Assembly: GCA_030602675.1 (NCBI GenBank)
Contig: JAUVZH010000236.1
Location: 1-5,219 of the forward strand
Reading direction: 5' to 3'
Origin: Candidatus Heimdallarchaeota archaeon
GTDB lineage: Archaea > Asgardarchaeota > Heimdallarchaeia > JABLTI01
Length of the DNA stretch: 5,219 nucleotides
A model generated the notes under the pieces. It had not been told where the DNA came from. It ran no database searches and was given only the letters and a program-made list of their open reading frames with translations. This document shows positions 3,622 through 3,778 of this stretch, piece after piece (positions within the stretch are counted from its first letter, which is position 1; each line of letters starts with the position of its first letter). The position numbers and the translations under genes were made by a program.

Positions 3622-3643
3622 CGCAGAAACTCATCGCCGGAAG
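3622..3643 (+). other. 5' flank of the processing stem (BHB-like motif, 5' strand)
   Basis: GAAACUCAUCG (3626-3636) pairs with CGGUGAGUUUC (3764-3774), giving 11 bp with one G.U. Three more pairs (3622-3624 with 3775-3777) lie beyond the bulged A3625. CCGG 3637-3640 forms the 4-bp central helix with 3757-3760, followed by the unpaired AAG at 3641-3643. Confidence 0.65.
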
Positions 3644-3762
3644 TTAAGCCTTCATACGTTATGTTAATTACTGATCTGAGCGATCGTTCGGGAACAACAT
3701 AAAGCTGCACAATGGTGCGGTCAAAGCTGGAGGGAAACACCCGGACTCGTCCGATCCCGGAA
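3643..3762 (+). rRNA. 5S rRNA, circularly permuted gene order (120 nt between the predicted junction points)
   Basis: All parts were read directly from the + strand.
- 3643-3650 GUUAAGCC.
- 3649-3658 is the helix II 3' strand.
- 3659-3665 with 3696-3702 forms helix V (7 bp).
- UACUG / GGGAA are the loop E signatures, with a GAUC/GAUC helix IV hairpin between them.
- 3704-3710 GCUGCAC pairs with 3715-3721 GUGCGGU as helix I, capped by AAUG.
- 3722-3725 CAAA is loop A.
- 3726-3734 GCUGGAGGG is the helix II 5' strand.
- 3738-3762 CACCCGGACUCGUCCGAUCCCGGAA is helix III plus loop C, close to the archaeal consensus CACCCGGaCUCAUuuCGAaCCCGGAAGUUAAGCC as I remember it.

G+C is 59/120 by hand count, against a much more AT-rich background. 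Confidence 0.8.
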
Positions 3763-3778
3763 ACGGTGAGTTTCGTGC
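3757..3778 (+). other. 3' flank of the processing stem (BHB-like motif, 3' strand)
   Basis: CCGG 3757-3760 forms the central helix. AAA 3761-3763 is a 3-nt bulge. 3764-3774 (extending to 3777) forms the outer helix with 3626-3636 (extending to 3622). On this side the outer helix, 3-nt bulge and 4-bp helix are canonical. Confidence 0.65.

What the first reader, a model, noticed from the sequence alone, without database searches (positions are those of the whole stretch)
3622..3778. 5S rRNA gene encoded in circularly permuted order
The only G+C-rich island in the window contains both halves of an archaeal 5S rRNA in swapped order.
- The canonical 3' half lies upstream at 3643-3710: GUUAAGCC, helix II 3' strand, helix V, UACUG...GGGAA loop E, helix IV hairpin, helix I 3' strand.
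- The canonical 5' half lies downstream at 3715-3762: helix I 5' strand GUGCGGU, CAAAGC, helix II 5' strand, ACACCCGGACUCGUCCGAUCCCGGAA.
- The halves do not overlap and together make 120 nt.
- All five helices can be drawn: helix I 7 bp, helix II about 8 bp with bulges, helix III CCGG/CCGG, helix IV, and helix V 7 bp.
- Joining 3762 to 3643 recreates CCCGGAA|GUUAAGCC, the most conserved stretch of archaeal 5S.

Permuted RNA genes rescued by circularisation are known for tRNAs in Cyanidioschyzon merolae and for SRP RNA in Thermoproteus. I am not aware of a described permuted 5S rRNA gene in archaea.
Basis: partly seen in the sequence, partly recalled or inferred. Interest (0 to 1): 0.92.

Follow-up and report, generated by a model that had tools for sequence, protein, structure and literature searches.

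The report
Circularly permuted 5S rRNA gene, Heimdallarchaeia
In this Asgard (Heimdall-group) archaeon the 5S ribosomal RNA gene is written back-to-front (3' half first), inside a stem with a tRNA-intron-type cut-and-rejoin signal predicted to restore the normal sequence; this probably explains why no 5S gene could be found in these genomes.

Summary

- **Gene order.** Window 3643-3710 is a 5S rRNA 3' half, 3711-3714 a 4-nt linker and 3715-3762 the 5' half.
- **Rfam.** RF00001 sees only two sub-threshold half-matches (18.2 and 17.5 bits; cut-off 38).
- **Rotated model.** A covariance model built only from four ordinary 5S rRNAs, rotated in silico, hits exactly 3643-3762 at 65.3 bits (E about 2e-13).
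- **Conservation.** The same arrangement occurs in 29 distinct loci of two divergent Heimdall-group clades: a Gerdarchaeota-like clade that includes the window, and a Hodarchaeales-like clade. Three lie on megabase contigs.
- **Covariation.** 99.1% of cells pair and 16 of 33 pairs carry double changes.
- **New here.** The leader (3623-3636) and trailer (3764-3778) form a covarying stem topped by a bulge-helix-bulge-like motif. Its canonical cut sites (3642|3643 and 3762|3763) would ligate to CCCGGAA-GUUAAGCC, the normal 5S sequence.
- **Other copies.** No canonical copy turned up in 10 species genomes. Wu et al. 2022 reported that 5S genes "could not be predicted" in their Asgard genomes, which include two circularized Heimdallarchaeum genomes.

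Cleavage, ligation and the final form (circle or re-opened) are inferred, not shown. I found no prior description.

The parts
3584..3600 (+). Putative archaeal promoter (BRE/TATA-like CGGCAAACTTTAAAAAG). Predicted transcription start is about 3621-3625.
   Evidence: AAACTTTAAA is conserved at the same distance in all clade-A loci. The TATA-to-start spacing is inferred from general archaeal promoter geometry and from the Thermoproteus SRP RNA case (TATA 26 nt upstream of the start; PMC4731332). No transcript data.
3623..3636 (+). Leader strand of the processing stem. 3626-3636 pairs with 3764-3774 (11 bp). 3623-3625 pairs with 3776-3778 across a one-nucleotide bulge (G3775).
   Evidence: 9 of 11 pairs show changes on both sides, and h1 plus h2 together are 93.6% paired against 29-51% for slid controls. 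Pair probability is 0.94-1.0.
3637..3640 (+). CCGG, the 5' strand of the 4-bp central helix of the BHB-like motif. It pairs with C3757-G3760.
   Evidence: CCGG, CUGG or CCGA in all loci: C-G to U-G in 5 sequences and an A.C mismatch in 7 clade-B sequences. The folding model prefers pairing with 3741-3744 by 1.8 kcal/mol, so this pairing is inferred from BHB geometry.
3641..3643 (+). Upstream 3-nt bulge AAG. Predicted endonuclease cut is between A3642 and G3643, and G3643 becomes the 5'-OH end.
   Evidence: Invariant in 27 sequences. Cleavage after the second bulge nucleotide follows from the BHB-enzyme crystal structures (dU14|A15; PMC12397907). The bulge is not closed by a third helix, so the motif is relaxed (bulge-helix-loop type).
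3643..3710 (+). 5S rRNA 3' half: GUUAAG, helix II 3' strand (3649-3654), helix V (3659-3665/3696-3702), loop E, helix IV (3671-3679/3684-3691), helix I 3' strand (3704-3710).
   Evidence: RF00001 half-match; CM R1; covariation.
3711..3714 (+). Linker AAUG joining the canonical 3' end to the canonical 5' end. It caps helix I as a tetraloop.
   Evidence: The sequence varies (AAUG, CUCG, UGCG, UGUG, UUCG, CGCG; GUU, UUU, AUU in clade B). The length is always 4 nt in clade A and 3 nt in clade B.
3715..3762 (+). 5S rRNA 5' half: helix I 5' strand (3715-3721), loop A CAAAGC, helix II 5' strand (3728-3733), helix III (3739-3744 with 3757-3760 and, after joining, 3643-3644), loop C.
   Evidence: RF00001 half-match; CM R1; covariation.
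3761..3763 (+). Downstream 3-nt bulge AAA, between the central helix (3757-3760) and the trailer helix (from 3764). Predicted cut is between A3762 and A3763.
   Evidence: Invariant in 27 sequences. Canonical helix-bulge-helix geometry. Joining A3762 to G3643 recreates CCCGGAAGUUAAGCC.
3764..3778 (+). Trailer strand of the processing stem.
   Evidence: Covaries with the leader, for example G3636-C3764 becomes A-U in 11 sequences.
3786..3790 (+). T5 run, a putative archaeal transcription terminator.
   Evidence: T-runs lie 10-25 nt after the trailer in most loci but are weak in L004 and L006. Inferred.
3570..3740 (-). Spurious 56-aa ORF overlying the RNA gene; not a part of the system. Homologous ORFs are annotated as hypothetical proteins in relatives.

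Best explanation
Window 3643-3762 is most likely the organism's functional 5S rRNA gene, encoded in circularly permuted order: 3' half, a 4-nt linker, then 5' half.

Proposed pathway:

1. A short independent transcript of about 165 nt is made, from a start near 3621-3625 to the T-run at 3786-3790.
2. Its roughly 20-nt leader and 16-nt trailer pair into a 14-bp processing stem.
3. The stem is topped by a bulge-helix-bulge-like motif. This is a 4-bp helix, CCGG 3637-3640 with CCGG 3757-3760, flanked by the 3-nt bulges AAG (3641-3643) and AAA (3761-3763).
4. The archaeal RNA-splicing endonuclease (EndA) cuts after the second nucleotide of each bulge.
5. The RtcB ligase joins A3762 to G3643. This restores the conserved helix III/loop C sequence ...CCGAUCCCGGAA-GUUAAGCC... 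and yields a 120-nt covalently closed RNA, with helix I capped by the linker.

I think it slightly more likely than not (about 0.55) that this circle is itself the mature ribosomal 5S rRNA. The alternative is that it is re-opened in the linker.

**Shown here:** the permuted order, homology to 5S, conservation, covariation of all variable helices and of the leader-trailer stem, and the exact register of the bulges.

**Inferred:** transcription limits, cleavage, ligation, circularity and incorporation into ribosomes.
For: - **Half-matches to RF00001.** 18.2 and 17.5 bits, each aligning well to one half of the model only.
- **Rotated model.** CM R1 was built from four canonical 5S rRNAs rotated at GGAA|GUUAAG with a scrambled linker. 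It hits 3643-3762 over the full length at 65.3 bits, E=2.2e-13. It hits all other permuted loci at 59-78 bits, and genuine canonical genes only at 22-43 bits.
- **Invisible to standard annotation.** Rfam at gathering threshold finds no 5S in four permuted loci, but finds canonical 5S at 74-117 bits in control loci.
- **Conservation.** 27 sequences (26 distinct) were aligned, plus L139 and L140. They come from NCBI MAGs, JGI, ENA and Logan assemblies. Three lie on megabase contigs: CP070695.1 (4.94 Mb), CP070760.1 (3.16 Mb) and JAHLVY010000001.1 (2.26 Mb). Each clade keeps its own conserved synteny.
- **Covariation of the 5S fold.**
  - 99.1% of cells pair, against 31-45% when partners are slid.
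  - 16 of 33 pairs have changes on both sides, and 0 of 500 shuffles reach the covariation score.
  - All six helix II pairs, which bridge the two halves, covary.
- **Leader-trailer stem.** 93.6% paired; 9 of 11 pairs covary.
- **Bulges.** AAG and AAA are invariant and sit exactly 4 bp apart on opposite strands. Cleavage after the second bulge nucleotide (PMC12397907) predicts precisely the canonical junction.
- **Direct precedent.** The Thermoproteus SRP RNA has a permuted gene, a 23-nt leader plus trailer forming a BHB, EndA cleavage and a circular mature RNA (PMC4731332).
- **Closed helix I is tolerated.** An E. coli 5S with its native ends joined by a 4-nt connector works in ribosomes (PMC7283268).
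- **No canonical copy seen.**
  - A 3'-half pattern blind to gene order hit once per genome in 10 species representatives, always permuted.
  - Wu et al. 2022 state that 5S rRNA genes 'could not be predicted' in their Asgard genomes, which include two circularized Heimdallarchaeum genomes (PMC8813620).
- **In favour of a circular end product.** The linker is always only 3-4 nt across both clades. Helix I is only 7 bp, against 9 bp in the canonical controls.
Against: - There is no RNA evidence of any kind. A search for ORFs spanning the predicted junction in public assemblies found none.
- The upstream bulge is not closed by a third helix, so the motif is a relaxed BHB (bulge-helix-loop). The endonuclease type of these archaea was not examined.
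- The nearest-neighbour model prefers, by 1.8 kcal/mol, an alternative in which the leader CCGG pairs with 3741-3744. The BHB central helix has only about 9% ensemble probability.
- In 7 clade-B sequences the fourth pair of the central helix is an A.C mismatch.
- The central helix is almost invariant, so covariation cannot choose between the two pairings.
- Whole genomes could not be scanned here, so the absence of a divergent canonical copy is not proven.
- Part of the 5' half was fixed by my metagenome search pattern. Its invariance in those hits is therefore not independent evidence. The genome-scan and synteny-derived loci were not constrained in that way.
Confidence: 0.8

Rival explanations
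1. Same permuted gene and same BHB excision and circularisation, but the circle is only an intermediate. It is re-opened in or next to the 3-4-nt linker to give a conventional linear 5S with canonical ends, as happens for permuted tRNA genes of Cyanidioschyzon merolae.
For: Permuted tRNA genes and archaeal 16S and 23S precursors use circular intermediates that are later opened (PMC4267664 discussion; PMC12918454). The linker sequence is unconstrained.
Against: - No processing signal is evident.
- The linker is minimal (3-4 nt) and of fixed length in each clade.
- Helix I is only 7 bp and would be weaker once opened.
- The permuted SRP RNA of Thermoproteus and many archaeal 23S rRNAs stay circular.
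Confidence: 0.3
2. The RNA works as a linear permuted molecule without ligation. Either it carries a nick at the AA bulge of helix III after endonuclease trimming, or it stays unprocessed. In the unprocessed case the leader's duplicated CCGGAA (3637-3642) serves as the 3' strand of helix III, and the leader-trailer stem holds the ends together.
For: - The MFE structure of 3621-3785 pairs 3637-3640 with 3741-3744 (probability 0.87), forming a complete 5S-like fold in the precursor.
- The leader CCGGAA exactly duplicates 3757-3762.
- Brown-algal mitochondrial 5S rRNAs are permuted in the final product (PMC4267664).
Against: - Both CCGGAA copies and loop C are conserved, including in loci found without constraining them. 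That would be redundant if the leader copy were the functional strand.
- Two 3-nt bulges 4 bp apart on opposite strands, giving an exact canonical junction, is a specific EndA signature.
- RNAs excised at a BHB are normally ligated by RtcB (PMC4731332).
Confidence: 0.1
3. The locus is a rearranged relic or pseudogene, or an assembly artefact. A conventional 5S gene elsewhere supplies the ribosome.
Against: - The arrangement is identical in 29 distinct loci from independent assemblies, three of them on megabase contigs.
- Compensatory substitutions preserve every helix, which indicates purifying selection on the folded RNA.
- There is one hit per genome, always permuted, in 10 species.
- Wu et al. 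could not find 5S genes in their Asgard genomes, including two circularized Heimdallarchaeum genomes.
Confidence: 0.03

Closest known systems
Permuted, circular SRP RNA of Thermoproteus tenax and T. uzoniensis (Plagens et al. 2015, eLife; PMC4731332)
   Same: - An essential, universally conserved structural RNA gene is permuted.
- It was 'missing' from annotations.
- It has its own TATA promoter and a short leader (23 nt there, about 20 nt here).
- The leader pairs with the trailer into a BHB.
- The cut sites restore a conserved hairpin region on ligation, and the old termini are replaced by continuous sequence.
   Different: - A different RNA (5S rRNA) in a different archaeal group (Asgard, not Thermoproteales; mesophile-like, A+T-rich genomes).
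- Spread across two deep clades rather than one genus.
- Here nothing has been tested at the RNA or enzyme level.
Permuted tRNA genes (Cyanidioschyzon merolae; Thermofilum pendens, Chan et al. 2011, PMC3218864)
   Same: The 3' half lies upstream of the 5' half in one transcript. A BHB forms from the flanks, followed by splicing endonuclease and ligase action and a circular intermediate.
   Different: tRNA circles are re-opened by tRNA end-processing enzymes acting on the intervening sequence. No comparable signal is visible in the 3-4-nt 5S linker.
Archaeal 16S and 23S pre-rRNA processing stems with BHB; circular or permuted 23S (Pyrococcus, PMC7758197; circular 23S in ribosomes, PMC12918454)
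   Same: Leader-trailer stem, BHB, EndA and RtcB, and a circular rRNA species. In several lineages the circle persists in ribosomes.
   Different: Those genes are collinear with the canonical rRNA, so circularisation merely joins the native ends. PMC12918454 states that archaeal 5S rRNAs are not processed this way. Here ligation is needed to create an internal conserved element.
Permuted mitochondrial 5S rRNA of brown algae and other stramenopiles (Valach et al. 2014; Rfam mtPerm-5S)
   Same: A naturally rearranged 5S rRNA that standard models miss.
   Different: - In the algae only helix I is replaced by a terminal hairpin.
- The termini sit at the alpha/gamma junction.
- The product itself is permuted, and no BHB or ligation is involved.
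- Rfam gave no mtPerm-5S match in the window.
Engineered cp5S rRNA in E. coli (Huang et al. 2020; PMC7283268)
   Same: Native ends are joined by a 4-nt connector and the molecule is opened in the loop C or loop D region, and it still supports functional ribosomes.
   Different: It is artificial and embedded in 23S rRNA. The natural gene appears to be re-closed rather than left open.

Membership tests
5S rRNA (Rfam RF00001) | Scores above the curated gathering threshold (38 bits) against RF00001 in genomic order | tested here: not met
   Two half-matches of 18.2 and 17.5 bits. There were no gathering-level hits in L004, L064, L104 or L137. This is as expected for a permuted gene.
5S rRNA (Rfam RF00001) | Sequence and structure homology to canonical 5S once gene order is accounted for | tested here: met
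   CM R1, built from four rotated canonical 5S rRNAs, hits 3643-3762 at 65.3 bits, E=2.2e-13, model positions 1-121 of 121.
5S rRNA (Rfam RF00001) | Three-way junction with helices I-V, supported by covariation | tested here: met
   The MFE of the rotated sequence gives the 5S fold. 99.1% of cells pair and 16 of 33 pairs have double changes.
5S rRNA (Rfam RF00001) | Conserved loop motifs: loop A CAAAGC, helix III/loop C ACACCCGG...CCGAUCCCGGAAGUUAAGC, loop E UACUG...GGGAA | tested here: met
   Read directly in the sequence and aligned to the RF00001 consensus.
5S rRNA (Rfam RF00001) | Present in the large ribosomal subunit | not testable with these tools
   Needs RNA from ribosomes or cryo-EM.
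Permuted RNA genes matured by BHB cleavage and ligation (permuted tRNAs, Thermoproteus SRP RNA) | 3' part encoded upstream of 5' part on the same strand in one compact unit | tested here: met
   3643-3710, then a 4-nt linker, then 3715-3762.
Permuted RNA genes matured by BHB cleavage and ligation (permuted tRNAs, Thermoproteus SRP RNA) | Leader and trailer pair, forming a 4-bp central helix flanked by at least one 3-nt bulge (definition quoted in PMC4731332) | tested here: met
   - Stem 3626-3636/3764-3774 covaries.
- Central helix CCGG/CCGG.
- The downstream bulge AAA has canonical geometry.
- The upstream bulge AAG opens into a junction, so the motif is relaxed (bulge-helix-loop type).
- Caveat: the folding model favours a competing pairing by 1.8 kcal/mol.
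Permuted RNA genes matured by BHB cleavage and ligation (permuted tRNAs, Thermoproteus SRP RNA) | Canonical cut positions (after the second bulge nucleotide) yield the correct mature junction | tested here: met
   Cuts at 3642|3643 and 3762|3763 give CCCGGAA-GUUAAGCC, identical to canonical archaeal 5S such as L075.
Permuted RNA genes matured by BHB cleavage and ligation (permuted tRNAs, Thermoproteus SRP RNA) | Junction-spanning or circular RNA observed; cleavage by the cognate endonuclease | not testable with these tools
   No RNA read data are accessible. An indirect look for junction-spanning ORFs in assemblies was negative.
Organellar permuted 5S rRNA (Rfam mtPerm-5S) | Helix I replaced by a terminal hairpin with termini at the alpha/gamma junction; match to the mtPerm-5S model | tested here: not met
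   The break here is in helix III. Rfam at E<=10 reported only RF00001 from the 5S clan, though overlapping lower-scoring clan members are suppressed.

The most novel reading that the evidence does not exclude
Heimdall-group Asgard archaea, including the Hodarchaeales-like clade, build their ribosomes with a covalently circular 5S rRNA. It would be made from a permuted gene by the tRNA-splicing machinery.

The shared break point, bulge register and linker position in two deep clades would mark a single ancient event. That would make the permutation a rare genomic character. It could be used to test whether eukaryotes, whose 5S genes are collinear (my own knowledge), branch inside or outside the permuted clade.
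Probability: 0.4. Interest if true: 0.92.

Novelty: new variant of a known kind. Interest (0 to 1): 0.88.

Why it matters
- **It would resolve an annotation gap.** Wu et al. 2022 wrote that 5S rRNA genes 'could not be predicted' in their Asgard genomes, which include two circularized Heimdallarchaeum genomes. Gene callers instead place hypothetical proteins over the locus. A permuted covariance model would recover the gene and correct genome-quality calls that require a 5S.
- **It extends a known mechanism to a new RNA.** Permuted genes rescued by the splicing endonuclease and ligase are known for tRNAs and one SRP RNA. Recent literature states that archaeal 5S rRNA does not go through circular processing (PMC12918454).
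- **It may add to the evidence for circular rRNAs in ribosomes.** If the product stays circular, it would be a circular 5S alongside the circular 23S rRNAs recently reported.
- **It may be phylogenetically informative.** The feature is shared by two deep Heimdall-group clades. One of them is Hodarchaeales-like, the order proposed as sister to eukaryotes (Eme et al. 2023; from my own knowledge, not checked here). As a discrete, hard-to-reverse character, it could bear on where eukaryotes branch.

Tried and rejected
- **tRNA scan of the window.** None found, so there is no tRNA-like processing element beside the 5S.
- **Other low-scoring Rfam hits.** CRISPR-DR32 at 2950-2982, SNORD43, TYMV_upPK and STnc410 all have E>3, and the first two lie inside the DsrE-like ORF. 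I treated them as chance.
- **Metagenome pattern scan.** GTTAAGY-N80-110-CACCCGG-N8-16-CCCGGAA returned 113 hits. Most were chance, or were canonical 5S genes preceded by a fortuitous GTTAAG such as the 23S 3' end. L081, L083, L089, L092, L097, L109, L076, L075, L122 and L132 were inspected and rejected. Only the two Heimdall clades were truly permuted.
- **Direct RF00001 scoring of the rotated sequence.** I replaced it with the reciprocal test, a rotated model against the native sequence.
- **Search for transcript-derived evidence.**
  - Reading frame -1 of the 120-nt circle has no stop codon.
  - I therefore searched the protein collection with a two-turn translation.
  - The only hit was P0241, a genomic-order spurious ORF, so there is no junction evidence.
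- **Third BHB helix closing the upstream bulge.** None could be drawn (3644... against ...3756), hence the 'relaxed BHB' label.
- **Bacterial promoter and terminator scanner.** Not used, because it models sigma-70 sites.
- **Literature searches for a prior description.** 'permuted 5S', 'circular 5S rRNA', and Asgard or Heimdall with 5S and BHB found only the organellar case and related rRNA and SRP work. Subscription-only papers are not covered.
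Full report
**1. The observation**

- 3643-3710 reads GUUAAGCC...UACUG...GGGAAC...GCUGCAC.
- 3711-3714 is AAUG.
- 3715-3762 reads GUGCGGUCAAAGC...ACACCCGGACUCGUCCGAUCCCGGAA.

The interval is the only G+C-rich island in the window, 0.45-0.47 against 0.40 or less elsewhere.

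An Rfam scan at permissive threshold gives two adjacent sub-threshold RF00001 matches. The match at 3599-3712 (18.2 bits) aligns convincingly only to the 3' half of the model. The match at 3713-3803 (17.5 bits) aligns only to the 5' half. That is the signature expected of a half-swapped gene.

The rotated sequence (3715-3762 followed by 3643-3710) is 116 nt, not 120. It folds by minimum free energy into the 5S three-way junction.

**2. Rotation test**

The tools cannot score an arbitrary sequence with RF00001, so I ran the reciprocal test.

- I rotated these at GGAA|GUUAAG, joined the native ends with scrambled 4-nt linkers, aligned them (A3) and built covariance model R1.
- R1 contains no Heimdall sequence.

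| Target | Score with R1 |
|---|---|
| Window 3643-3762, all 121 model positions | 65.3 bits, E=2.2e-13 |
| Every related permuted locus | 59-78 bits |
| Genuine canonical genes (half-matches only) | 22-43 bits |

Rotation is therefore worth roughly 47 bits for the window. Standard annotation would miss the gene: Rfam's gathering threshold reports no 5S in L004, L064, L104 or L137.

**3. Organism and relatives**

The flanking genes are a PAC2-like gene, Mrp/NBP35, DsrH/F/E, a DsrE-like gene, TusA and a 117-aa HMG-CoA_red_N-like gene.

- The best named relatives of the Mrp protein are Candidatus Heimdallarchaeota, Gerdarchaeota and Asgard MAGs.
- Syntenic loci from seven assemblies all carry the same permuted arrangement between TusA and the 117-aa gene. 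One of them lies on a 2.26-Mb contig.
- A genome-collection scan used a 3'-half pattern that would match a canonical or a permuted copy alike. It found exactly one hit in each of 10 species-representative MAGs, and all 10 are permuted.
- A metagenome scan with a generic 'permuted' pattern recovered more of this clade. It also recovered a second, much more divergent clade: L027, L031, L064, L104, L113, L115 and L124.
- The neighbours of that second clade are closest to Hodarchaeales, Hodarchaeum mangrovi and Heimdallarchaeota proteins.
- Synteny then led to the same gene on two megabase chromosomes, CP070695.1 (4.94 Mb) and CP070760.1 (3.16 Mb), and in MAG B3_Heim.
- All remaining pattern hits were chance matches or canonical 5S genes preceded by a fortuitous GTTAAG.

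**4. Covariation**

Twenty-seven sequences (26 distinct) spanning window 3623-3778 were aligned (A2).

- *The 5S fold written in genomic (permuted) order.*
  - 99.1% of cells are standard pairs, against 31-45% when partners are slid by 1-3 columns.
  - 16 of 33 pairs have changes on both sides.
  - 0 of 500 shuffles reach the covariation score.
- *Helix II.* All six pairs covary. Each joins a base of the upstream '3' half' to a base of the downstream '5' half', so the halves act in one molecule.
- *Helix I.* It is closed by the linker and also covaries. The window has GCUGCAC/GUGCGGU, its relatives GCUGCGU/ACGCGGU, and clade B GAAG/CUUC, GGGU/ACCC, GAGU/GCUC and GAGA/UCUC.
- *Caveat.* GTTAAGY, CACCCGG and CCCGGAA were fixed by my metagenome pattern. 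Their invariance in those hits is not independent evidence. It does hold in the genome-scan and synteny-derived loci.

**5.

- G3626-G3636 pairs with C3764-C3774 (11 bp). The stem is extended by 3623-3625/3776-3778 across a one-nucleotide bulge.
- 9 of the 11 pairs show double changes, and h1 plus h2 are 93.6% paired overall. Clade B has an even longer leader-trailer stem.
- Directly on top of this stem, CCGG 3637-3640 can pair with CCGG 3757-3760.
- That leaves A3761-A3763 as a 3-nt bulge on the trailer side and A3641-G3643 as a 3-nt bulge on the leader side. The bulges are on opposite strands and 4 bp apart, which is the geometry of the archaeal bulge-helix-bulge motif.
- Both bulges are invariant.
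- In the crystal structures of BHB-endonuclease complexes, the scissile phosphate lies between the second and third bulge nucleotides (dU14|A15; PMC12397907).
- Applied here, the cuts fall at 3642|3643 and 3762|3763. Ligation gives ...CCGAUCCCGGAA-GUUAAGCC..., exactly the canonical sequence, as in the canonical 5S of L075.
- A conserved BRE/TATA-like element (AAACTTTAAAAAG, ending at 3600) predicts a start near 3621-3625 and so a leader of about 20 nt. A T5 run follows at 3786-3790.
- This mirrors the Thermoproteus SRP RNA almost feature for feature. That case has a permuted gene, a 23-nt leader, a BHB formed with the trailer, cleavage by the splicing endonuclease and a circular mature RNA (PMC4731332).

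**6. Weak points**

- The upstream bulge is not closed by a third helix, so the motif is a relaxed bulge-helix-loop form. Some archaeal endonucleases accept such forms and others do not (PMC12397907). I did not determine which enzyme type these archaea have.
- The folding model prefers pairing the leader CCGG with 3741-3744, a 'pseudo-helix III' that gives the precursor a complete 5S-like fold. The difference is 1.8 kcal/mol (-54.2 against -52.4), and the BHB central helix has about 9% ensemble probability.
- All three CCGG tracts are essentially invariant, so covariation cannot choose between the two pairings.
- In 7 clade-B sequences the fourth central pair is A.C.
- No RNA data were available. 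A long-shot search for ORFs translated across the junction found only a genomic-order spurious ORF.

**7. End state**

After BHB excision, ligation by RtcB is the normal fate, so a 120-nt circle is expected.

Two features make me favour, modestly (about 0.55), a circle that persists in the ribosome.

- The linker is always 3 nt (clade B) or 4 nt (clade A) with free sequence.
- Helix I is only 7 bp, against 9 bp in the canonical controls.

Published cases are compatible with this reading.

- The Thermoproteus SRP RNA stays circular.
- Several archaeal 23S rRNAs stay circular in ribosomes (PMC12918454).
- An engineered E. coli 5S with a 4-nt connector across helix I functions (PMC7283268).

Re-opening in the linker (about 0.3) or an unligated form (about 0.1) cannot be excluded.

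**8. Is there a conventional 5S elsewhere?**

I could not scan whole genomes. Three lines argue against one.

- The order-blind pattern scan gave one hit per genome, always permuted.
- Every helix is under structure-preserving selection.
- Wu et al. [quoted passage not shown]

By contrast, other Asgard lineages (Borrarchaeum, Jordarchaeum) are reported with detectable 5S genes (PMC9723677).

**9. Novelty**

Full-text searches found permuted 5S only in organelles (Valach et al. 2014). That is a different rearrangement: helix I is replaced by a hairpin, the product itself is permuted, and there is no BHB.

A 2026 paper on archaeal rRNA circularisation explicitly excludes 5S from that pathway.

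I therefore rate this as a new variant of a known kind. It is a 5S rRNA gene in an arrangement, and with an inferred maturation route, so far known only for tRNAs and one SRP RNA. The library lacks most subscription journals, so an existing description cannot be ruled out.

**10. Verdict**

- The feature is real, conserved and under selection.
- Confidence that this is a functional permuted 5S gene is about 0.93.
- Confidence that continuity is restored by BHB cleavage and ligation is about 0.8.
- Confidence that the mature form is circular is about 0.55.

Noticed in passing
window 3570-3740 (-); L008/L011 7675-7860; L140 12379-12666: Gene callers place spurious ORFs (56, 61 and 95 aa) over the unannotated permuted 5S. 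One of them (P0241) is deposited at NCBI as 'hypothetical protein K9W42_11805'.
   Followed up: yes
L137 12340-12425 and 12545-12580; likewise L027, L031, L064, L104, L113, L115, L124, L139, L140: - In the Hodarchaeales-like clade the leader-trailer stem is much longer than in the window's clade, with extra complementary blocks such as GCGCTTA/TAAGCGC and GCGCCAA/TTAGGCGC.
- The TATA-like box (TTTAAAGRCTCTTGAA) sits 60-75 nt upstream, implying a leader of about 45-50 nt.
   Followed up: partly
window 3637-3642 and 3757-3762: - CCGGAA is duplicated: once in the leader, immediately before the 3' half, and once at the end of the 5' half.
- It may be a relic of a tandem-duplication origin of the permutation.
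- It may instead be selected, because the palindromic CCGG forms the BHB central helix.
- It also allows a competing 'pseudo-helix III' fold of the precursor.
   Followed up: partly
window 9-3494 and 3840-4193; L004, L006, L007, L008, L010, L011: - The window's clade shows strongly conserved synteny: ribosomal protein eL44-like, PAC2-like, Mrp/NBP35, DsrH-DsrF-DsrE, DsrE-like, TusA, the permuted 5S, then a 117-aa HMG-CoA_red_N-like gene.
- The fibrillarin and Nop5 genes lie a few kb away.
- In L010 the Dsr and TusA genes are absent but the 5S stays next to the 117-aa gene.
   Followed up: partly
L104 116-1357 (-) and 5358-6518 (-): Two long ORFs with TnpB/OrfB-like features lie within a few kb of the clade-B 5S gene. 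They were judged by eye and not checked against HMM libraries.
   Followed up: no
L021 (DATKZI010000026.1, 256-kb contig): This record is titled 'Candidatus Bathyarchaeia archaeon' but carries the Heimdall-type permuted 5S. Its Mrp protein (P0011) is 84% identical to the window's. The taxonomic label is probably wrong.
   Followed up: no
A2 columns 89 and 128 (window 3711 and 3749/3750): The two clades differ by compensating one-nucleotide length changes. Clade A has a 4-nt linker and an 11-nt loop C segment; clade B has a 3-nt linker and a 12-nt segment. The excised RNA is therefore exactly 120 nt in every locus.
   Followed up: no
window 2950-2982 (+): A weak match to a CRISPR repeat model (RF01342, 21.4 bits, E=3.1) lies inside the DsrE-like ORF. 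It is a single copy and is taken as chance.
   Followed up: no
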